A stretch of 64,000 bases of DNA, from positions 134,527 through 198,526 of the forward strand of contig CAZWKN010000001.1 of assembly GCA_964633995.1 (NCBI GenBank). The letters run 5' to 3'. Each line of letters begins with the position of its first letter. Position 1 is the first letter of the stretch. This document shows, piece after piece, positions 691-63,744 of the stretch. The stretch comes from an uncultured Gammaproteobacteria bacterium. GTDB taxonomy: Bacteria; Patescibacteriota; Microgenomatia; CAZETR01; Amesbacteraceae. Below the pieces are notes generated by a model. That model did not search any database and was not told the origin of the DNA. It saw only the letters and a program-made list of their open reading frames with translations. Position numbers and translations under genes: made by a program.

Positions 691-1917
691 AAGTAGCTGC
701 GAAGCCAGTTTGTCAGGTGACACCTCAACCTGTTGCCCCGTAGACATGTTTTTTAGGATGACGGCGTGCTTTGCAATTTCTTCTGGGCCAACTATCACGA
801 CGTAGGGGGTATTTTTTTGGGAGGCGTATTTTAGCTGTTTGTCGAGTTTGATATTTGGGTCTGGGAAGAGTTCAACGTTGATACCGAGGGAGCGTAAGTT
901 GACTGAGAGATTGAGAGATTGAGAGACTAAGTTGGGTGAAAAAATAGTGACAAGCGCTTTGGTGGAGTTTGTATTTTCGGAGTGGAGTTTTAGTTCGGTA
1001 ATTACATCGACAATGCGATCGAGGCCGATGGTGGATCCCACTGCAGGTAGATTTGGTCCACCTAGGTTTTCTATGAGGTGATCGTATCTGCCGCCGCCAC
1101 TAACCGACCCTATTTTAGGTTCCTTGACCACGGTTTCGTAAATGGCCCCGGTATAGTAATCCAAGCCCCTGACTAAGGTGGGATCGAATTTGAGGTGTTT
1201 GGTACCAAGAGCTTCGGACAATTTGATAATTTCAGACAAATTCGTGTCCGGTTCGGCGGATTTTAAATAGGAGAATAAATCTAGAACCTGAATTTTACTG
1301 AGGCCTTTTTGCATTAATTCTTCCGAAACCTCGTCGGTTGATTTTTTGTCTAATTTGTCGACTGACTGAAGTACGGTAAGAGATAAATTGGATGGAATAT
1401 TGGCTTTGATGATAATGTCGAACAAAATTTGCCGGGAATTAATGCGAATGGTGAAGTCTGAAAATTTAAGGTTTGTCAGACAATCCGAAATAATGGCGGG
1501 AATTTCGGCATCAGCAATGGGTGATTCCGTGCCAACAATGTCGAAATCACACTGATAAATTTCCCGATACCTACCTTTTTGGGTATTGTCTGCCCTAAAC
1601 ACGGGTTGGATTTGATAGCGTTTAAATGGTTTTGGAATATCTGGATACTGCGCCATAACCCTGGCCAAGGGAACAGTAAGGTCATATTTTAAGCCCACAT
1701 CCCGGTTGCCGCGATCTTTGAAGAGGTACATAAGTTTTTCCGCCTCTTCGCCATATTTGCCTAACAAAACGTCGGCGTATTCCAGAGTTGGAGTTTGTAG
1801 TTCGGAAAAACCATACGATTCAAAAACTTGTCTAAACGTTGAAATTACCTGGTTTCTGATGGCCATAACCGGAGGAAGAAAATCACGGAAGCCTTTGAGA
1901 GTTTGTGCGGTTGCCAT
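685..1917 (-). CDS. hisS: Histidine--tRNA ligase
   Basis: 410 aa, MATAQTLKGFRDFLPP...; class II aaRS HisRS N-terminal signature and a C-terminal anticodon-binding domain. Confidence 0.93.
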   Translation of the reverse strand: MATAQTLKGFRDFLPPVMAIRNQVISTFRQVFESYGFSELQTPTLEYADVLLGKYGEEAEKLMYLFKDRGNRDVGLKYDLTVPLARVMAQYPDIPKPFKRYQIQPVFRADNTQKGRYREIYQCDFDIVGTESPIADAEIPAIISDCLTNLKFSDFTIRINSRQILFDIIIKANIPSNLSLTVLQSVDKLDKKSTDEVSEELMQKGLSKIQVLDLFSYLKSAEPDTNLSEIIKLSEALGTKHLKFDPTLVRGLDYYTGAIYETVVKEPKIGSVSGGGRYDHLIENLGGPNLPAVGSTIGLDRIVDVITELKLHSENTNSTKALVTIFSPNLVSQSLNLSVNLRSLGINVELFPDPNIKLDKQLKYASQKNTPYVVIVGPEEIAKHAVILKNMSTGQQVEVSPDKLASQLLG

Positions 1918-4925: not shown

Positions 4926-4965
4926 GAGATCGTCACGGCCGATGTACATCTGGGTTTGCGATGAC
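4926..4965. repeat. Degenerate copy of the nested-hairpin repeat (GAGATCGYCACGGCCG...GCGATGAC)
   Basis: Aligns with 5025-5062 and in inverse orientation with 28463-28503. Confidence 0.5.
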
Positions 4966-4990
4966 ATATTAATAAAACCTCACCCTCGTT

Positions 4991-5014
4991 CCCTCTCCTG
5001 GATTCAGGAGAGGG
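4991..5014 (-). terminator. Hairpin CCCTCTCCTG-GATTC-AGGAGAGGG followed on the minus strand by a T-rich run; probable terminator downstream of tRNA-Leu(CAA); also sits at the 3-prime side of dnaB
   Basis: Perfect 9-bp stem; minus-strand reading is followed by GGTTTTATTAATAT; homologous hairpin CCCTTCTCCACAATTGTGGAGAAGGG at 28561-28586. Confidence 0.55.
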
Positions 5015-5024
5015 AGGCTTTGTA

Positions 5025-5062
5025 GAGATCGCCACGGCCGCCAAAGGCGGCCTCGCGATGAC
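5025..5062 (-). repeat. Nested-hairpin repeat element (outer stem GTCATCGC/GCGATC, inner 7-bp GC stem GGCCGCC-TTT-GGCGGCC) immediately 3-prime of tRNA-Leu(CAA)
   Basis: Read directly from the sequence; second copy at 28463-28503 carries compensatory inner-stem changes (CCCCGCC-AAG-GCGGGG). Confidence 0.6.
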
Positions 5063-5069
5063 ACTGAAG

Positions 5070-11760: not shown

Positions 11761-12104
11761 AATTTTGAAATGTTATTAGAAGCACGGGCGTCCACTGTAA
11801 AGAAACCGGTTGTTACGACTGTTAATGGGGTCAGGCCTGATGGTAAGCCTGCTTCCCATTCAATAACTACATCAAAAAAACGAGTTGAACAAGAGAAGAA
11901 GAAACCTGCGAAACAACCGACTTTGTTTCCAGGGTAGTTTTCACAAGGGGAGAGGAGTAGTTTTCACGGGTTCAACCTCAATTTTAGCTTTGAATGATAT
12001 AGTTTGATGGGGTTAGAGGAAATATTATAGGTCATAATCTTATCACCGATTGTGGATAACTGCTAAGAAGACAACTTCGGAATGCGCCGGTAGGGGTGGG
12101 GTGA

Positions 12105-12173
12105 GAGATTGAGGTGTTAAGACATTGAGTAATTAAGAGATTAAGAGATTGAGTGATTAAGTGGTTAAGTGGG
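12105..12173. repeat. GAGATTGAG/TTAAGTGG decamer-type tandem repeats in the recombinase upstream region
   Basis: gagagattgaggtgttaagacattgagtaattaagagattaagagattgagtgattaagtggttaagtgg; related gagagattgagagattgagagac sits inside hisS (905-927). Confidence 0.5.
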
Positions 12174-14244: not shown

Positions 14245-15258
14245 GTGAAAGTAGCAGTTCTTTTTAATTCACCAGGACCTTCTTCGTCCTTGCAAATTGC
14301 TGAGTCTGAAGATGATACGCGCCAGTCCGCGAGTGAAGTTTGTGATGCTTTGAAAGAATTGGGACATGCGGCGACCTTGGTGGAAGTTGGTGAAAAAGAC
14401 ATCGAAAAAATATCACTGATAAGGGCAGATTTTATTTTTAATTTAGTTGAATGGAGTGGACGCGAGACGACTTTGGGGGTAAGGGTGGTAAATATGTTAG
14501 AAAGAATGGGAATTGCTTTTTCCGGGTCGGGTTCTTTTGGATACGAAGTTTCTTGTAATAAATTTTTAATGAAAAAAGCTTTGGTGCGAAATAAAATTCC
14601 GACAGCCAAGTATCAAGTACTAAGTGCTAAGGATGAAGTGCTAAGGGATGATTTTGTTTTTCCTGTAATTGTAAAACCAGTTGCTGAACATTGTGGAATT
14701 GGGATATCTCAGGATAGTGTTTGTAAAAATATCCAAGAAACAAGGAACAAGATACAAATTTTGTTTGAAACGTTTGGACAGCCAGTGTTGGTCGAAGAAT
14801 TCATTGAAGGGAGAGAGTTGCATGTGACGGTATTGGAAAAAAATGGAAAGCCTTGGGTATTGCCGCCAGCGGAGGTGATTTTCAAGAAAAAAAAAGATTA
14901 TTTTCCGATTCTTTCATACGACGCTAAATGGAAAACAAATACATGGGAGTGGAAAATGTCTGAGATGGTTGATGCCAAATTGGACGCCTCCTTGTTAAAA
15001 ACTGTGACTAGTATCTCGACTAAAGCATTTACCAAGTTGGGTGGAGCTGATTATACGAGATTGGATTTTAGGGTTAATAAAAAAGGAGTTTATGTGTTGG
15101 AAATAAATAATAATCCCGGGATTGGATTTGACTTGGAAAGTGGTATTGGAAGATCGGCGCGGAGAGTGGGTTTTGATAAGTATTCTAAATTGATAGATCA
15201 CATTGTAAAAAACGCAGTTGTTAGATGGTCTAAAAGATATGACGCCTTTGCATTTTGA
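14245..15258 (+). CDS. ATP-grasp enzyme, D-alanine--D-alanine ligase-like (paralogue 1)
   Basis: 337 aa; N-terminal Rossmann-like VAVLFNSPG...; central FPVIVKPVAEHCGIGIS; EEFIEGRELHVTVL; C-terminal YVLEINNNPG (ATP-grasp). Confidence 0.65.
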   Translation: MKVAVLFNSPGPSSSLQIAESEDDTRQSASEVCDALKELGHAATLVEVGEKDIEKISLIRADFIFNLVEWSGRETTLGVRVVNMLERMGIAFSGSGSFGYEVSCNKFLMKKALVRNKIPTAKYQVLSAKDEVLRDDFVFPVIVKPVAEHCGIGISQDSVCKNIQETRNKIQILFETFGQPVLVEEFIEGRELHVTVLEKNGKPWVLPPAEVIFKKKKDYFPILSYDAKWKTNTWEWKMSEMVDAKLDASLLKTVTSISTKAFTKLGGADYTRLDFRVNKKGVYVLEINNNPGIGFDLESGIGRSARRVGFDKYSKLIDHIVKNAVVRWSKRYDAFAF

Positions 15259-28400: not shown

Positions 28401-28462
28401 TTGGTTTAGTAAGTTTTGTTACACCGGCCGAAAGGCCGGTGTTTGGGTTTAGGGAGATACAT

Positions 28463-28503
28463 GTCATCGCGAACCCCGCCAAGGCGGGGTGTGGCGATCT
28501 GAC
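28463..28503 (+). terminator. Nested-hairpin repeat element downstream of the major pilin gene (probable terminator/processing hairpin)
   Basis: GTCATCGC-GAA-CCCCGCC-AAG-GCGGGG-TGTG-GCGATCTGAC; inverse-orientation homologue of 5025-5062 with a compensatory inner stem. Confidence 0.55.
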
Positions 28504-28560
28504 GAGATTGCTTCCATGTGCCCGCAACGACACTCCCCTTCCCTTTCCACCTCACCCCTG

Positions 28561-28586
28561 CCCTTCTCCACAATTGTGGAGAAGGG
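28561..28586 (+). repeat. Hairpin CCCTTCTCCACAATTGTGGAGAAGGG, partner of the nested-hairpin element
   Basis: Homologous to 4991-5014 (CCCTCTCCTGGATTCAGGAGAGGG); a C-rich spacer precedes it. Confidence 0.5.
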
Positions 28587-28609
28587 GGTGTTGCGGTTAG
28601 AATGGAGGC

Positions 28610-53284: not shown

Positions 53285-53533
53285 ATGCAGGATGTAAATG
53301 AAATGGTGGGGGTAGATGTGAGTTTTTGGGGAAGTAGGGTGGTTCCTACTAGATTTGTATGGGATGGCCGTAGACATGATGTAAAAAGAATAAATATGAA
53401 ATTTGAGAGAAAAAACGCCGGAAGAAGGTATTTGTGTTTTGCGTTAGACACGGGAAGTATGTTGGTAGAGCTTGCTATGGATCGGGAAGATTTGAGCTGG
53501 AGGGTCACACGGTGCGCACCATCTTACACGTAG
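53285..53533 (+). CDS. Small hypothetical protein immediately upstream of, and overlapping, dinB
   Basis: 82 aa from MQDVNEMVGVDVSFWGS...; overlaps the dinB start by 22 nt in another frame. Confidence 0.3.
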   Translation: MQDVNEMVGVDVSFWGSRVVPTRFVWDGRRHDVKRINMKFERKNAGRRYLCFALDTGSMLVELAMDREDLSWRVTRCAPSYT

Positions 53534-54720
53534 ACATGAATTCATATTTTGCGACGGCGGAGCAGCAGGCGAACCCTTTTTTGAGGGGGAAACCAATAGG
53601 GGTGATAAAAGCTTTGAACAGGGGGTGCATAATCGCAGCTTCAGTGGAGGCGAAAAAATTTGGAGTGAAAACCGGCATGAATGTGTGGGATGCCAAGAAG
53701 AAATGCCCGCATATTATTTTGGTACCGTCGGATATGGACAAATATTTTTCTATTACTTGCGGGATGGTGGAAATTTTGAAATCCTACTCCCCTGTCCTGG
53801 AAATTTTTTCAATAGATGAATGTTTTTTAGATGTGACGCAGACAAAAGGTTTATATTGTGGAGGTGCGTGGGAAATGGCTTTGGAGATAAAGAAACGGAT
53901 TAGGGAAGAGTTGGGAGAGTGGATGAAATGTTCGGTGGGGATTGGCTTTTCCAAAATTGTGGCTAAGTTGGCATCTGAAATGCACAAGCCTGACGGATTA
54001 ACATGGTTGACGGTTGATAACTATCTTGAAAAGACTGAAAGTGTAGAAGTTTCTGAGGTGTGTGGAATTGGGTTTTCCCGGACGGCGTATTTAAGAACCA
54101 GGGGGGCTTTTACGTTGGGACAAGCAAGAAGATTGGAGTTGCCTGAGGAGATAAAAGATTTGGTTTTTTTGAGAAACGATGACGATTTGGTAACTGTTTC
54201 GGAGTTGGAAGCTGCTAAGAGTGTGTCGAGAACATACACCACATATAAAACTCTAAACTCTAAATTCGAAATTCTAAAATTGGTGAGAAATTTGGTGGAA
54301 GAAGTGTGTGCCAAATTAAGAGAAATGGAAATGGTGGGGAGAACTTTTATTTTAAGTTTATCAGGTAACAGTTGCCAGTCCTGCCTGCCGGCAGGCAGGT
54401 TTTCAGTTAGGAAAACGATAAATACACCGACAGACGATCCCCTTCTTATTTATGATTTGTTCGTTAGGGAATATGAAAGAAATACAGTAACAGAAGTTAG
54501 GCAAGCGGGGGTGTGGGTGACAAATTTAATGGACAATGGCCAATTGACAATTGACAGGTCGAGAACAAGTTTGTTGGGGTCGGTAGATAAGGTCAATCAA
54601 AAATTTGGATTGTTTACGTTGTATCCGGCTAGTTTGTTGGGAAATGTTTTGATCAGACCTGAAGTGACTGGTTTTTTGGGAGATAAGTGGTATAGACTAG
54701 GTGGGCCGAAGAGGACTTGA
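53512..54720 (+). CDS. dinB: DNA polymerase IV (Y-family)
   Basis: GTG start, VRTILHVDMNSYFATAEQQ (catalytic Asp/Glu), SIDECFLDVT; the C-terminal little-finger region holds three short repeat insertions; the last 18 nt overlap tRNA-Leu(CAG). Confidence 0.8.
   Translation: MRTILHVDMNSYFATAEQQANPFLRGKPIGVIKALNRGCIIAASVEAKKFGVKTGMNVWDAKKKCPHIILVPSDMDKYFSITCGMVEILKSYSPVLEIFSIDECFLDVTQTKGLYCGGAWEMALEIKKRIREELGEWMKCSVGIGFSKIVAKLASEMHKPDGLTWLTVDNYLEKTESVEVSEVCGIGFSRTAYLRTRGAFTLGQARRLELPEEIKDLVFLRNDDDLVTVSELEAAKSVSRTYTTYKTLNSKFEILKLVRNLVEEVCAKLREMEMVGRTFILSLSGNSCQSCLPAGRFSVRKTINTPTDDPLLIYDLFVREYERNTVTEVRQAGVWVTNLMDNGQLTIDRSRTSLLGSVDKVNQKFGLFTLYPASLLGNVLIRPEVTGFLGDKWYRLGGPKRT
54380..54399. repeat. 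Perfect 20-nt palindrome CCTGCCTGCCGGCAGGCAGG inside dinB (in frame: SCQSCLPAGRF)
   Basis: Identical 20-mer at 63092-63111 next to the GIY-YIG gene. Confidence 0.7.
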
Positions 54721-54783
54721 ACCTCCATGCCTTGCGGCATACGCTTCTGAAGCGTACGTGTATACCAGTTTCACCATCGGCCC
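54702..54783 (-). tRNA. tRNA-Leu (anticodon CAG)
   Basis: Manual fold: GGGCCGA acceptor, anticodon loop UUCAGAA, long variable arm; shares GGGCCGATGGTGAAACTGGTATACAC with Leu(UAG) and Leu(GAG). Confidence 0.85.
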
Positions 54784-54987
54784 AGAAATATGGCATTTGA
54801 GACTGCGCTTCTCAAATCCTCTTCGAGATCTTTGCGATGCTCGCTTTCAAATGCCTGGCAGCATTATATTTCTTTTTTTCCCATAGAAAAAGCCCCGGCT
54901 CCTGCCCGATGCCGAGGCTTTTATAATCCCGCCGCCAGACCTTTCGACCTAGCCGCAGAACCTAAATGCATTGTAGCCACTATAGGG

Positions 54988-56335: not shown

Positions 56336-56410
56336 GTGGACGATGAGGGATTCGAACCCCCGACCTCCTCAGTGTAAATGAGGCGCTCTAACCAACTGAG
56401 CTAATCGTCC
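56336..56410 (-). tRNA. tRNA-Val (anticodon UAC)
   Basis: Manual fold: GGACGAU acceptor, anticodon loop UUUACAC, T-loop GGTTCGAATCC. Confidence 0.85.
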
Positions 56411-56426
56411 ATCCCTTCTTTATTTG

Positions 56427-56497
56427 AGCGGCTAACGGGAATCGAACCCGTATCTCATCCTTGGCAAGGACGTGTTCTACCACTGAACCATAGCCGC
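56427..56497 (-). tRNA. tRNA-Gly (anticodon GCC)
   Basis: Manual fold: GCGGCUA acceptor, anticodon loop UUGCCAA, discriminator U. Confidence 0.85.
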
Positions 56498-56603
56498 GAA
56501 TCTGCGATTCGCGTTGAAAGGAACCTACTATTCGTTTACACTCATAGATCCTTTCATATCCCTTCGCCAATTGTTATTGGCTGGTGATAGCCGCATTGCG
56601 GTG

Positions 56604-56676
56604 TGCCGAGAGAGGGAATCGAACCCCCATGAAGCGCTCTTCAGGCGCCCGCCGTGACCAACTTGGCTATCTCGGC
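56604..56676 (-). tRNA. tRNA-Phe (anticodon GAA)
   Basis: Manual fold: GCCGAGA acceptor, anticodon loop CUGAAGA, T-loop GGTTCGATTCC. Confidence 0.85.
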
Positions 56677-56705
56677 TTGGTCTGTATTATATAATATTAG
56701 CAGAT

Positions 56706-56787
56706 GGGCCGATGGTGAAACTGGTATACACGCAGGTTTTAGGAACCTGTCCCGCAAGGGGTGGAGGTTCAAGTCCTCTTCGGCCCA
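56706..56787 (+). tRNA. tRNA-Leu (anticodon UAG)
   Basis: Manual fold: GGGCCGA acceptor, anticodon loop UUUAGGA, long variable arm. Confidence 0.85.
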
Positions 56788-56815
56788 CTCTGATATATAA
56801 TATAGCTTGTTTTCC

Positions 56816-56897
56816 GGGCCGATGGTGAAACTGGTATACACGTACGCTTGAGGTGCGTATGCCGTAAGGCGTGGAGGTTCAAGTCCTCTTCGGCCCA
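56816..56897 (+). tRNA. tRNA-Leu (anticodon GAG)
   Basis: Manual fold: near-identical body to Leu(UAG); anticodon loop UUGAGGU. Confidence 0.85.
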
Positions 56898-56915
56898 CAT
56901 AAACAAAATATATAT

Positions 56916-57000
56916 GCCGAGGTGGCGAAATGGTATACGCAGGGGCCTTAAGAGCCCCCGAGGTTAACCCCTCATGCGGGTTCGAGTCCCGCCCTCGGCA
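56916..57000 (+). tRNA. tRNA-Leu (anticodon UAA)
   Basis: Manual fold: GCCGAGG acceptor, anticodon loop CUUAAGA, long variable arm, T-loop GGTTCGAGTCC. Confidence 0.85.
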
Positions 57001-57004
57001 CACA

Positions 57005-58151: not shown

Positions 58152-58258
58152 GCGGGTATAATTAATTATCGGGGTGTATCGGAAGGACTTGGGGCCCCTG
58201 CCCCAAAACTTCCTCTATCTCTCGCAAAGCTCGTGATAATTCATCGGCTTGAAAATTT
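58152..58258 (+). promoter_or_regulatory. Structured tRNA-leader repeat (copy C) upstream of tRNA-Pro
   Basis: gcgggtata...tcggaaggacttggggcccctgccccaaaacttcctctatctctcgc; same family as 63003-63069 and 63390-63456. Confidence 0.55.
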
Positions 58259-62991: not shown

Positions 62992-63002
62992 TAAGGGGGT
63001 TC

Positions 63003-63069
63003 GCGGGTATATCAGAAAGACTTGGAACTGATGTTCCAAAATTTCTTCTATACTCCGCTCGCCACGCTC
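63003..63069 (+). promoter_or_regulatory. Structured tRNA-leader repeat (copy A) preceding the truncated tRNA-Gly copy
   Basis: gcgggtatatcagaaagacttggaactgatgttccaaaatttcttctatactccgctcgc; inner and outer stems differ from copies B and C by compensatory substitutions. Confidence 0.55.
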
Positions 63070-63091
63070 GCGGGTATAGCTCAATGGTAGA
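63070..63091 (+). pseudogene. Truncated tRNA-Gly 5-prime fragment (nt 1-22 through the D-arm)
   Basis: gcgggtatagctcaatggtaga is identical to the first 22 nt of the intact tRNA-Gly at 63457, then diverges into the palindrome CCTGCCTGCCGGCAGGCAGG. Confidence 0.7.
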
Positions 63092-63111
63092 CCTGCCTGC
63101 CGGCAGGCAGG
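63092..63111. repeat. Perfect 20-nt palindrome CCTGCCTGCCGGCAGGCAGG at the junction of the truncated tRNA-Gly copy and the GIY-YIG gene
   Basis: Identical to 54380-54399 within dinB. Confidence 0.7.
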
Positions 63112-63123
63112 GCACAGTTTTCC

Positions 63124-63369
63124 ATGTATTTTGTGTACATAATTCAAAGCAGTTCAACTAAAAAGTTTTATACTGGAATTACTAACAACATTGACAGGCG
63201 GCTTGAAGAGCACAATCGGATTAATTCTAATTCAGTGGTATCTCGTGGGTTGACTGATTTCGAGTTGGTATATACAGAAGAAGTTTGTGATAGAATTTCA
63301 GCACGAAAACTCGAAAAATACTTAAAATCAGGAGCAGGTAGAGAGTTTCGAGATGAAATAGTAAAATGA
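63124..63369 (+). CDS. GIY-YIG nuclease-domain protein (free-standing homing-endonuclease-like)
   Basis: 81 aa; MYFVYIIQSSSTKKFYTGITNNIDRRLEEHN matches the GIY-(10-11)-YIG ... R ... E ... N catalytic motif order. Confidence 0.75.
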   Translation: MYFVYIIQSSSTKKFYTGITNNIDRRLEEHNRINSNSVVSRGLTDFELVYTEEVCDRISARKLEKYLKSGAGREFRDEIVK

Positions 63370-63389
63370 CGGTGACGCTCGTTTCACTC

Positions 63390-63456
63390 GCGGGTATATC
63401 GGAAGATCTTGGGGCCCCTGCCCCAAAACTTCCTCTATTCCCCGCTCGCTACGTTC
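63390..63456 (+). promoter_or_regulatory. Structured tRNA-leader repeat (copy B) upstream of intact tRNA-Gly
   Basis: gcgggtatatcggaagatcttggggcccctgccccaaaacttcctctattccccgctcgc. Confidence 0.55.
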
Positions 63457-63527
63457 GCGGGTATAGCTCAATGGTAGAGCACTAGTTTTCCAAACTAGGT
63501 ACAGGGGTCCGATTCCCCTTACCCGCT
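63457..63527 (+). tRNA. tRNA-Gly (anticodon UCC)
   Basis: Manual fold: GCGGGUA acceptor, D-arm GCUCAAUGGUAGAGC, anticodon loop UUUCCAA, T-loop GGTCCGATTCC, discriminator U. Confidence 0.85.
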
Positions 63528-63744
63528 CTCGTCTTTCGTCGATCCGTCGCCTTTGGCTAGGACGACTACGGACGATAGTGGGTGATATGTCTAGATCAGA
63601 AGCAGCTGCTCAAAGAGTAAGAAGAAAAAGAGTGGAGTCTGGGGTAATGAATTGATTGTTTTGGGATTGGCGGGTTTGCCGATTGCCGGCATTATTTCAT
63701 TTGTCATGGCCAATTCCAGTTGATAAAAACAAATAGTTCGATAC

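What the first reader, a model, noticed from the sequence alone, without database searches (positions are those of the whole stretch)
54380..54399. Identical 20-nt perfect palindrome CCTGCCTGCCGGCAGGCAGG in dinB and at the GIY-YIG / tRNA-Gly junction
The same 20-mer occurs at 54380-54399 inside dinB and at 63092-63111, exactly where the truncated tRNA-Gly copy ends and 12 nt upstream of the GIY-YIG endonuclease gene. Both are followed by a GTTTTC-containing segment. A perfect GC-rich palindrome appearing at the boundary of a homing-endonuclease-like gene and again 9 kb away suggests a recognition or cleavage site of the GIY-YIG enzyme, or the terminal repeat of a small mobile element that has also landed in dinB.
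Basis: seen in the sequence. Interest (0 to 1): 0.65.

Follow-up and report, generated by a model that had tools for sequence, protein, structure and literature searches.

The report
Mobile 20-bp palindrome tied to GIY-YIG
The two identical 20-base palindromes are copies of a tiny hairpin insertion found unchanged in bacteria of at least ten phyla; it is consistently linked to one clade of 80-residue GIY-YIG nuclease genes that sit inside duplicated tRNA genes, and it can also land in frame inside essential protein genes such as dinB.

Summary
In detail: CCTGCCTGCCGGCAGGCAGG occurs exactly twice (54380-54399, 63092-63111), against 0 expected. Both copies are clean insertions. One adds to an in-frame 11-residue insert in a DinB surface loop that is an insertion hot spot among orthologues. 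The other splits positions 23/24 of a truncated 5' copy of tRNA-Gly(TCC) that precedes an 81-aa GIY-YIG ORF and the intact tRNA.

The same 20-mer occurs in at least 120 genome records from at least 10 phyla, including cultured Bacteroidota, always with different flanks. Two composition-matched control palindromes gave no hits.

In 80 loci encoding relatives of the nuclease, the unit [partial tRNA with inserted hairpin]-[GIY-YIG ORF]-[intact tRNA] recurs. The palindrome or close variants occur only in the window's nuclease clade (18/33 vs 0/48); another clade carries a different hairpin.

Best reading: the palindrome is the cognate hairpin of an Ssn-like single-domain GIY-YIG nuclease (Chenal 2025) and spreads as solitary copies. 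The genetic link is shown. Binding, cleavage and mobilisation are inferred.

This is a new variant of a known kind. The tRNA-embedded cassette, cross-phylum identity and in-frame insertions were not found in the searched literature.

The parts
54380..54399 (.). Solitary copy of the 20-bp palindrome (PAL) inside dinB, translated as CLPAGR
54367..54399 (+). 33-nt in-frame extra segment (AACAGTTGCCAGT + PAL, encoding NSCQSCLPAGR) relative to 'empty' DinB orthologues (LSLDG|FWARKT); lies in a little-finger-domain loop that is an insertion hot spot
   Evidence: Pfam IMS_C spans residues 262-372
53512..54720 (+). dinB (DNA polymerase IV; database protein P0001 is 402 aa; the longest ORF starts at 53434), intact reading frame
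63001..63069 (+). Leader copy 1: duplicate of the sequence upstream of tRNA-Gly; includes the 54-nt hairpin element 63005-63058
   Evidence: (D2, D4)
63070..63091 (+). Pseudo-tRNA-Gly(TCC), positions 1-23 (identical to the real gene)
63092..63111 (.). PAL copy inserted between tRNA positions 23 and 24 (3' strand of the D-stem) of the pseudo-tRNA; exactly 20 nt, no target duplication
63112..63124 (+). Pseudo-tRNA-Gly continued, positions 24-37 (T28 missing); homology ends in the anticodon loop, and A37 is the A of the ORF's ATG
63124..63369 (+). 81-aa single-domain GIY-YIG nuclease ORF (UPF0213/SLX1-like branch; Y5, Y16, R26, E64 conserved)
63388..63456 (+). Leader copy 2 (81% identical to 63001-63069), includes hairpin element 63392-63445
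63457..63528 (+). Intact tRNA-Gly(TCC), the functional copy restored 3' of the cassette

Best explanation
PAL is a discrete 20-bp hairpin-forming insertion element. It is genetically coupled to one clade of single-domain (about 80 aa) GIY-YIG nucleases.

These nuclease genes are selfish cassettes lodged in tRNA genes. The ORF sits at the anticodon/variable-loop region of a tRNA gene. One part of the tRNA is duplicated, usually the 5' part (positions 1 to about 37), so an intact tRNA is kept on one side and a partial pseudo-copy on the other. The pseudo-copy almost always carries PAL or a related GC-rich hairpin.

The copy at 63092 is this cassette-associated hairpin. The copy in dinB is a solitary, in-frame copy in a tolerant surface loop.

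Proposed mechanism, by analogy with the Ssn family: the nuclease recognises the PAL stem (CCTGCCTGC/GCAGGCAGG) as a hairpin in single-stranded DNA. Because PAL is a perfect palindrome, this can happen on either strand. The nuclease nicks next to the hairpin. Nicking at hairpins and stem-loop junctions in transiently single-stranded DNA (tRNA genes, other hairpins, PAL itself), followed by host repair or copying, spreads the 20-mer in trans.

Shown: the discreteness of the unit, precise 20-nt insertions, cross-phylum spread, the cassette architecture and the clade-specific linkage. Inferred: binding, cleavage and the copying step.
For: (1) Precise insertion. With PAL removed, the pseudo-tRNA aligns continuously with the real tRNA. 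The same exact 20-nt, no-duplication insertion is seen in other pseudo-tRNAs (L015, L037, L085, L099).

(2) Discrete unit. Hits to the 14-mer core are bimodal: either the full 20-mer (42) or unrelated flanks. Within the PAL-selected loci, variants are few (6 with one mismatch, 3 with two) beside 127 exact copies.

(3) Spread. At least 120 genome stretches, as labelled in the records: Patescibacteria about 36, Bacteroidota about 38 (including cultured Winogradskyella, Flagellimonas, Longitalea, Flavivirga, Aquiflexum, Agriterribacter, Aestuariivivens), Omnitrophota, Planctomycetota, Pseudomonadota, Desulfobacterota, Nitrospirota and others. All have different flanks. Control palindromes gave 0 hits.

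(4) Linkage seen from the palindrome side. The only recurrent gene family within 1.2 kb of PAL is the small GIY-YIG. About 8 of 125 copies lie within 350 nt of one.

(5) Linkage seen from the nuclease side. In 80 metagenome loci, PAL or PAL-like hairpins lie within 140 nt upstream in 18/33 of the window's clade and 0/48 elsewhere (Fisher 2e-9). A different hairpin (GTCCTCCRTAGC..GCGAAGGAGGAC) occurs in 0/33 vs 18/48. N-terminal extensions of database homologues read PACRQAG/LPAGRQG after the tRNA D-arm peptide GVAQLV.

(6) Architecture. An intact same-strand tRNA lies within 150 nt (usually within about 30 nt) downstream of the ORF in 18 of the 28 clade loci with enough downstream sequence. 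Species include Leu, Ile, Asn, Lys, Arg, Thr and Gly. Tandem units occur (L126), as do mirror units tRNA-ORF-pseudo(3' part) with the hairpin again in the pseudo-copy (L140, L146, L179).

(7) Empty site. The syntenic relative L349 has an uninterrupted tRNA-Gly(TCC) directly after tRNA-Pro, and no PAL or GIY-YIG in 21 kb.

(8) Structured targets. PAL is nested at or near the centre of another PAL (L018, L042, L226, L208/L230). It lies in loops of unrelated hairpins in 16 cases vs 5.2 expected. In tRNAs it sits at stem/loop junctions (9/10, D-loop, 21/22, 23/24, 31/32, 47/48).

(9) Precedent. Single-domain 94-aa GIY-YIG SsnA binds a cognate hairpin repeat in ssDNA and cuts 5' of it. Those repeats flank ssn genes and are dispersed in hundreds of copies (PMC11893778).

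(10) Catalytic residues are conserved.
Against: No biochemical data exist for this protein or any clade member. More than 90% of PAL copies have no GIY-YIG gene nearby, and one 29.5-kb contig with at least 6 copies encodes none.

PAL does not fit the published Ssn-related motif and lacks the oriented flanks that SsnA needs. The PAL position inside pseudo-tRNAs varies, so it is not a fixed element end.

A 20-nt insertion cannot by itself be in frame. Coding copies need an extra +1 (DinB of L121: net +21) or other adjustment, which is unexplained. GIY-YIG chemistry (hydrolytic nicking) offers no obvious strand-transfer step.

The high occupancy of pseudo-tRNAs by hairpins could instead reflect selection, for example heterology that blocks deletion of the ORF by recombination between the tRNA repeats. 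The Fisher tests ignore phylogenetic non-independence.
Confidence: 0.55

Rival explanations
1. PAL is an autonomous-looking 'orphan' hairpin repeat, spread by a host process or by an unrelated enzyme. It is found next to GIY-YIG genes only because both accumulate in the same neutral, structure-prone DNA (pseudo-tRNAs, intergenic hairpin clusters).
For: Most copies are solitary. PAL occurs in GC-rich contigs without any GIY-YIG. Several unrelated cross-genome hairpin families share the same niches, including the same DinB loop and intergenic clusters in the window.
Against: The association is clade-specific (18/33 vs 0/48), while other clades carry another hairpin. Nearly every pseudo-tRNA of this clade is occupied. 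No other gene family recurs near PAL, and a RAYT-like Y1 transposase was seen in only 1 of 120 loci and has its own different hairpins.
Confidence: 0.2
2. PAL in the cassette is retained by selection as a spacer that protects the selfish ORF. A 20-nt heterology in the middle of the roughly 37-nt tRNA direct repeat suppresses recombination or slippage that would delete the ORF, or prevents the pseudo-tRNA from folding or being cleaved. The nuclease targets tRNA genes rather than PAL.
For: Hairpins of several kinds, not only PAL, always lie in the pseudo-copy and never in the functional tRNA. This holds at varying positions and in both 5'- and 3'-duplication units. T4 SegB is a GIY-YIG homing enzyme acting in a tRNA gene cluster (PMC2330249, seen).
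Against: It does not explain why one exact 20-mer is used across phyla, why hairpin type tracks nuclease clade, or where solitary copies come from. An 81-aa protein lacks the DNA-binding domain of GIY-YIG homing endonucleases.
Confidence: 0.15
3. PAL is a functional cis-element acting as an RNA or DNA signal (terminator, RNase site or mRNA 5' stabiliser for the nuclease transcript) that evolved convergently.
For: It lies between the tRNA leader/promoter region and the ORF. It is a stable hairpin. The dinB copy is followed by TTTT.
Against: It is found in frame inside FtsK, GatB, RfbB and DinB. There is no T-run downstream in general. Identity over 20 nt across phyla is not expected of convergent terminators. 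Rfam has no match.
Confidence: 0.05
4. PAL is an assembly or sequencing artefact.
For: Many hits are in metagenome-assembled genomes.
Against: It is present in isolate genomes, in assemblies made by many pipelines, in frame in conserved genes and with decayed variants. It matches no common adapter sequence known to me (own knowledge).
Confidence: 0.02

Closest known systems
Ssn nucleases and their hairpin repeats (NTS/dRS3 in Neisseria; 'SRM' motifs), Chenal et al. 2025, PMC11893778
   Same: A single-domain GIY-YIG protein of about 80-95 aa with no DNA-binding domain. A cognate 20-50-nt hairpin repeat sits next to the gene and is dispersed through the genome. Hairpin sequence co-varies with nuclease lineage. 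The pair is found across phyla.
   Different: PAL is a perfect, unoriented palindrome and does not fit the SRM consensus. The gene is embedded in a duplicated tRNA gene rather than flanked by repeats on both sides. The 20-mer is identical across phyla while the nucleases are only 31-70% identical. Copies occur in frame inside genes, whereas only 2% of NTS repeats are genic. The nearest solved relatives are UPF0213 proteins. Membership of CDD cd10448 was not testable.
REP elements and RAYT (Y1/HUH) transposases
   Same: A short palindromic repeat is dispersed in many copies, with the presumed mobilising enzyme gene flanked by the repeat. The enzymes recognise ssDNA hairpins.
   Different: The enzyme fold and chemistry differ (GIY-YIG hydrolase versus HUH tyrosine). 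PAL has no GTAG/CGTC tag. REPs are extragenic and lineage-specific, whereas PAL is also intragenic and the same in many phyla.
Rickettsia palindromic elements (RPE); GC clusters, repetitive hairpin elements and byp elements of fungal and sponge mitochondria
   Same: Small hairpin-forming repeats that insert into genes without destroying the reading frame, nest in one another and pile up in intergenic DNA.
   Different: Those are longer (about 30-150 nt), lineage-restricted and have no identified cognate enzyme. PAL is 20 nt, has no stop codon in any frame and is linked to a nuclease clade.
Free-standing GIY-YIG homing endonucleases in tRNA regions (T4 SegB, PMC2330249) and tRNA-targeting integrative elements
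   Same: A selfish gene lodged in or next to tRNA genes. The insertion regenerates a functional tRNA through a partial tRNA duplication.
   Different: There is no DNA-binding domain and no integrase. The duplicated part is usually the 5' half, ending in the anticodon loop. The cargo is a bare 240-nt ORF.
UPF0213 (YhbQ/BH0048/EF2693) and SLX1 structure-specific nucleases
   Same: These are the closest by sequence profile (E 3e-13, 3e-11 and 1e-6). The catalytic Tyr, Tyr, Arg and Glu are conserved.
   Different: The C-terminal motif is distinct (EKYLKSGxGRE). The tRNA-embedded, hairpin-associated genomic context has not been described for UPF0213 as far as my searches show.

Membership tests
GIY-YIG nuclease superfamily | GIY-YIG catalytic domain with conserved Tyr, Tyr, Arg and Glu | tested here: met
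   Pfam PF01541, E 9.6e-15 over residues 1-69. Y5, Y16, R26 and E64 are invariant in 52 homologues.
Ssn family (CDD cd10448, PMC11893778) | Single-domain protein of about 90 aa with no accessory DNA-binding domain | tested here: met
   81 aa, with only the GIY-YIG domain.
Ssn family (CDD cd10448, PMC11893778) | Assignment to cd10448 / blastp E<1e-10 to N. meningitidis SsnA | not testable with these tools
   No CDD library and no SsnA sequence were available. The nearest solved proteins are UPF0213.
Ssn family (CDD cd10448, PMC11893778) | Gene flanked by Ssn-related motif HGTCWYN(0-2)YYVSBRHN(0-5)WNVSBRGN(0-2)RNCYNB | tested here: not met
   The regular expression matches neither PAL context and finds nothing in the window. 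It matches only 2 of 80 related loci.
Ssn family (CDD cd10448, PMC11893778) | A cognate hairpin repeat next to the gene that is also dispersed in the genome, with hairpin type co-varying with the nuclease lineage | tested here: met
   (18/33 vs 0/48).
Ssn family (CDD cd10448, PMC11893778) | Site-specific cleavage of ssDNA next to the hairpin; no activity on dsDNA or RNA | not testable with these tools
   Requires biochemistry.
GIY-YIG homing endonucleases (I-TevI, SegB type) | Nuclease domain tethered to a sequence-specific DNA-binding domain | tested here: not met
   81 aa. Only weak sub-threshold similarity to TIGR01453 (29.9 bits vs cut-off 56) and to the nuclease parts of PHROG homing enzymes.
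GIY-YIG homing endonucleases (I-TevI, SegB type) | Presence/absence polymorphism of the gene at a conserved target between related genomes | tested here: inconclusive
   The relative L349 has an uninterrupted tRNA-Gly(TCC), but it is distant (DinB 65% identical) and the surrounding synteny is only partial.
REP/RAYT systems | Imperfect palindrome with a 5' GTAG or CGTC tag; extragenic; cognate Y1 transposase | tested here: not met
   No tag or strong flank motif. Intragenic copies exist. A Y1_Tnp gene was seen in only 1 of 120 loci and has other hairpins.
MITE / IS-derived elements | Terminal inverted repeats plus a fixed-length target-site duplication | tested here: not met
   No duplication at five pseudo-tRNA sites. 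7-nt direct repeats flank only about 10% of copies, mostly inside heptamer tandem arrays.
Intrinsic terminator | GC-rich hairpin followed by a T-run, located after genes | tested here: not met
   Downstream positions +2 to +6 are not T-rich. Copies lie inside ORFs.

The most novel reading that the evidence does not exclude
PAL and its nuclease form a new kind of mobile system. A bare 80-residue GIY-YIG hydrolase, with host repair functions, copies or moves a 20-nt ssDNA hairpin into other hairpin or stem-loop sites genome-wide, including tRNA genes and, in frame, essential protein genes. The same nuclease gene propagates as a minimal cassette that splits a tRNA gene and regenerates it by partial duplication. 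The need to recognise every dispersed copy freezes the 20-mer, which would explain its identity across at least ten phyla.
Probability: 0.3. Interest if true: 0.85.

Novelty: new variant of a known kind. Interest (0 to 1): 0.72.

Why it matters
If the link is functional, it extends the recently discovered Ssn principle (mini GIY-YIG nuclease plus cognate ssDNA hairpin) to Patescibacteria, Bacteroidota and many other phyla, with a new specificity.

It defines the smallest selfish cassette seen so far in tRNA genes: an ORF of about 240 nt plus a partial tRNA duplication.

It offers a concrete source for the short GC-rich peptide inserts (LPAGRQ and similar) that appear in conserved proteins of small-genome bacteria.

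A 20-nt site conserved across phyla, paired with an 81-aa enzyme, would also be an attractive reagent for site-specific ssDNA cleavage.

For annotation, recognising PAL prevents spurious N-terminal extensions of GIY-YIG genes and the miscalling of tRNAs that carry PAL (for example a 92-nt 'tRNA-Met').

Tried and rejected
- RAYT/IS200-like mobilisation. A Y1_Tnp gene lies near the DinB orthologue in L121, but it is flanked by its own different hairpins, and a homologue is present in only 1 of 120 PAL loci.
- A strict insertion target motif. Only weak preferences were found: -1 A 41%, T 10%; -3 A 37%.
- A general target-site duplication. None is seen at pseudo-tRNA sites. The 7-nt flanking repeats (15 observed vs 0.9 expected) are mostly heptamer tandem arrays.
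- Other gene families near PAL. None recurs.
- Known RNA families. Rfam finds only tRNAs in the window.
- Defence-system models. PADLOC gave no hit.
- The SRM consensus of the Ssn paper. It does not match.
- The idea that the short DinB inserts SSGRHQ/SSGQRQ are decayed PAL copies. Their DNA (L239, L240) is only vaguely similar, so this is left open.
- A first attempt to fetch nuclease relatives with a 52-sequence alignment. It failed for lack of a conserved block; a 10-sequence alignment worked.
- Nine literature searches found no paper on this 20-mer or on tRNA-embedded mini GIY-YIG cassettes.
Full report
**1. Observation**

CCTGCCTGCCGGCAGGCAGG occurs exactly twice in the window, at 54380-54399 and 63092-63111. 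There are no further copies even with three mismatches, and none in 100 dinucleotide-preserving shuffles. It is a perfect palindrome. As single-stranded DNA it folds into an 8-bp stem with a CCGG loop at -8 kcal/mol.

The first copy lies inside a 428-codon ORF with both DinB domains (IMS, IMS_C) and is read through in frame as SCLPAGRF. The second lies 12 nt upstream of an 81-codon ORF that is a bare GIY-YIG domain (PF01541, E 1e-14).

The organism is a member of the Microgenomates group (Patescibacteria), judged from its DinB relatives.

**2. Anatomy of the copy at 63092**

A 91-nt direct repeat (63001-63091 / 63388-63478, 81% identical) covers the leader and the first 22 nt (tRNA positions 1-23) of tRNA-Gly(TCC).

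With the 20-mer removed, homology with the real tRNA (63457-63528) continues without interruption to tRNA position 37, apart from one missing base. Three points follow:
- The palindrome is a precise 20-nt insertion between positions 23 and 24 of a partial tRNA copy.
- The partial copy ends in the anticodon loop.
- A37 of the partial copy is the A of the ORF's ATG.

The ORF is followed after 18 nt by the second leader copy and the intact tRNA. The shared 'GTTTTC' is the tRNA anticodon arm at one site and ordinary codons at the other.

**3. Anatomy of the copy in dinB**

I aligned 60 Microgenomates DinB orthologues. About half have LSLD(G/N)|FW(A)RKT with nothing in between. The window has 11 extra residues there (33 nt = AACAGTTGCCAGT + palindrome).

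Other orthologues carry other short inserts at exactly this point:
- P0002 (68% identical) has the exact 20-mer in another reading frame, GAT GG|PAL|AC TTT, a net +21 nt.
- P0010 and several others carry an unrelated hairpin (CCCCTCTCCTAATCTAGGAGAAGGG).

The site is a hot spot for hairpin insertions, or the only tolerant loop. The two PAL insertions are most simply independent events. Two syntenic relatives have no palindrome anywhere in 21 kb, and their dinB sites are empty or differently filled.

**4. Distribution**

By record titles the hits comprise:
- about 36 Patescibacteria;
- about 38 Bacteroidota, including cultured Winogradskyella echinorum, Flagellimonas yonaguniensis, Longitalea luteola, Flavivirga, Aquiflexum lacus, Agriterribacter humi and Aestuariivivens sediminis;
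- 10 Omnitrophota and 6 Planctomycetota;
- records labelled Gamma- and Deltaproteobacteria, Bdellovibrionales and Thermodesulfovibrionales;
- single records labelled Chloroflexi, Verrucomicrobia, Elusimicrobia and Ignavibacteria.

Flanks differ at every site. Viral contigs hold 35 stretches (44 copies), some at 60-68% G+C, and one 29.5-kb contig has at least six copies. Two control palindromes of the same composition (arms swapped; sequence reversed) gave zero hits.

Hits to the inner 14-mer are bimodal. They either extend to the full 20-mer or have unrelated flanks, so 20 nt is a discrete unit. Decayed copies exist but are few. An assembly artefact is excluded by the isolates and by the in-frame copies.

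**5. Where solitary copies sit**

No strong target motif exists: -1 is A in 41% and T in 10%, and -3 is A in 37%. Insertions into pseudo-tRNAs are exactly 20 nt with no target duplication.

About 10% of copies lie between 7-nt direct repeats (15 observed vs 0.9 expected), mostly inside heptamer tandem arrays. Copies in the loop or centre of another hairpin are enriched: 16 vs 5.2 for stems of at least 6 bp. Several are nested at or near the centre of another PAL or PAL-like hairpin (L018, L042, L021, L226, L208/L230).

In tRNA sequences the insertion points are stem/loop junctions: 9/10, the D-loop, 21/22, 23/24, 31/32 and 47/48. One apparently complete tRNA-Met carries PAL in its variable loop and is called a 92-nt tRNA by ARAGORN.

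In-frame copies occur in FtsK, GatB, RfbB, two ArnT-like proteins, a secreted BNR protein and DinB. Seven of eight use the frame xxC CTG CCT GCC GGC AGG CAG Gxx = LPAGRQ (binomial p = 0.003), and the window's dinB is the exception. PAL has no stop codon in any frame. How a 20-nt unit ends up in frame (+1 in L121) is unexplained.

**6. Link to the GIY-YIG gene**

Seen from the palindrome side, the only gene family that recurs within 1.2 kb of PAL in 120 loci is the small GIY-YIG. About 8 of 125 copies are within 350 nt of one.

Seen from the protein side, about 14 of 110 database homologues were annotated with N-terminal extensions. 11 of these read the palindrome (PACRQAG, LPAGRQG, CLPAGR), often after GVAQLV, which is the translated tRNA D-arm.

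I then fetched 80 metagenome loci encoding relatives. The exact 20-mer lies within 140 nt upstream of the ORF in 10 loci. One- or two-mismatch or indel variants lie there in five more. Related hairpins sharing the stem CCTGCCTGC/GCAGGCAGG with other loops occur in several others.

On a neighbour-joining tree these all fall in the half that contains the window's protein: 18/33 vs 0/48, Fisher 2e-9. A different hairpin, GTCCTCCRTAGC..GCGAAGGAGGAC, is confined to the other half: 0/33 vs 18/48. The tests ignore shared ancestry, but the pattern is clear. PAL-associated nucleases are only 31-70% identical (mean 48%) while the 20-mer is invariant.

**7. The cassette**

In the PAL clade, 18 of the 28 loci with enough downstream sequence have an intact same-strand tRNA within 150 nt downstream of the ORF, usually within about 30 nt of its stop. 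Species include Leu, Ile, Asn, Lys, Arg, Thr and Gly. The ORF is preceded by a copy of the 5' part of that same tRNA, running from about +1 to the anticodon loop and carrying the hairpin.

Variations on this layout occur:
- Units can be tandem (L126).
- Units can hold two pseudo-fragments, each with PAL (L142).
- Mirror units exist, tRNA-ORF-pseudo(3' part), again with the hairpin in the pseudo-copy (L140, L146, L179).

Other clades sit 3' of a tRNA (19/48) without such duplications.

A syntenic relative has tRNA-Pro(TGG) followed directly by an uninterrupted tRNA-Gly(TCC), an empty site.

The simplest description is a bare ORF inserted in the anticodon/variable-loop region of a tRNA gene with duplication of one flank. 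This is what a long staggered break with fill-in, or a break-repair duplication, would give. That step is inference.

**8. Comparison with what is known**

The protein profile is closest to the UPF0213 proteins BH0048 and EF2693 (E 3e-13, 3e-11) and then to SLX1. It has no PADLOC hit and only sub-threshold similarity to homing-endonuclease models.

The most relevant precedent is Chenal et al. 2025 (PMC11893778):
- SsnA, a 94-aa single-domain GIY-YIG protein (CDD cd10448), binds a hairpin repeat (NTS) in single-stranded DNA and cuts 5' of it.
- The repeats flank ssn genes and are dispersed in hundreds of copies.
- Homologues in several phyla have their own hairpins, and the authors note the analogy with REP/RAYT.

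The system here behaves genetically like an Ssn/hairpin pair, but differs in several ways:
- PAL does not fit the published motif and is an unoriented perfect palindrome.
- The gene is embedded in a duplicated tRNA.
- The hairpin is identical across phyla.
- Copies occur in frame in genes.

That paper does not mention tRNA, Patescibacteria or Bacteroidota. Eight further literature searches found nothing on the 20-mer or on such cassettes. Membership of cd10448 could not be tested.

**9. Verdict**

The best explanation (confidence about 0.55) is that PAL is the cognate ssDNA hairpin of an Ssn-like mini-nuclease carried by a tRNA-embedded selfish cassette, and that it spreads in trans as solitary 20-nt insertions, preferentially at structured DNA.
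- Shown: discreteness of the unit, precise insertion, distribution, architecture and clade-specific linkage.
- Inferred: binding, cleavage and the copying mechanism.

Main rivals:
- coincidence of niche (0.2);
- selection of the hairpin as an anti-deletion or anti-folding spacer (0.15);
- a cis-regulatory signal (0.05);
- an artefact (0.02).

Novelty: a new variant of a known kind.

Noticed in passing
window 58172-58225, 63005-63058, 63392-63445: A 54-nt element lies upstream of tRNA-Pro, of the pseudo-tRNA-Gly and of tRNA-Gly. It begins with the first 9 nt of the downstream tRNA, followed by a 33-nt hairpin (GGAAGGACTTGGGGCCCCTGCCCCAAAACTTCC; -12.6 kcal/mol, z -3.7). It looks like an older partial tRNA copy with a different hairpin inserted at position 9/10. 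It was not found in any of the loci fetched up to that call.
   Followed up: partly
window 4929-5066 and 28421-28600: Clusters of other GC-rich hairpins lie in intergenic DNA next to tRNA-Leu(CAA) and between a pilin-like gene and the prepilin peptidase gene. They include TCCCTCTCCTGGATTCAGGAGAGGGA (4990-5015) and CCCTTCTCCACAATTGTGGAGAAGGG (28561-28586), the same family as the hairpin inserted in DinB of L123. GTCATCGCGA...GATC-type elements resembling the Neisseria NTS core also occur there.
   Followed up: partly
DinB orthologues P0002-P0060 (alignment); window 54367-54399: The loop between LSL(D/S)G and FWARKT of DinB carries at least three unrelated short inserts in different lineages: PAL, the CCCTCTCC..GGAGAGGG hairpin (LTPNPSPNLGEG) and longer composites. 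This is a hot spot for mini-insertions in a conserved protein.
   Followed up: partly
L124-L203 (80 loci with GIY-YIG relatives): Mini GIY-YIG genes are strongly tRNA-linked in a clade-specific geometry. The PAL clade lies immediately 5' of an intact tRNA (18/28). Other clades lie immediately 3' of one (19/48), often preceded by the hairpin GTCCTCCRTAGC..GCGAAGGAGGAC.
   Followed up: partly
L228 2239-2330 (viral contig IMGVR_UViG_3300033148_008720): An otherwise complete tRNA-Met(CAT) carries PAL between the variable loop and the T-stem. ARAGORN calls it a 92-nt tRNA, as if PAL formed a long variable arm. Whether it is functional is unknown.
   Followed up: no
L121 5932-6606 and flanks: A 224-aa Y1_Tnp (RAYT/IS200-like) gene lies near the DinB orthologue. 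It is flanked on both sides by its own hairpin, AGCTAGACCACCTGGAGGGTGGA. It is unrelated to PAL.
   Followed up: partly
window 901-935, 12102-12173, 14602-14647, 2518-2549: Short tandem arrays with 7-8-nt periods (TGAGAGAT, AGTGCTAAGG-like). Elsewhere PAL is often found inside such heptamer arrays (15 observed vs 0.9 expected for 7-nt flanking repeats). The origin of the arrays is unexplained.
   Followed up: no
window 54698-54788 vs 56811-56901; dinB 3' end: tRNA-Leu(CAG) on the minus strand (54700-54783) overlaps the last roughly 20 nt of dinB. It is a 92% inverted copy of tRNA-Leu(GAG) in the nearby tRNA cluster (56336-57001).
   Followed up: no
window 1-64000: GC skew is positive in every 2-kb bin (0.08-0.39), so the whole window lies on one replichore, with the + strand G-rich.
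   Followed up: no
L349 15965-16015: In a relative, tRNA-Pro is preceded by a copy of its own first about 18 nt followed by the complement of part of it (GTTCATCGG..CCGATGAAC). This is another partial 5' tRNA duplication, without any ORF.
   Followed up: no
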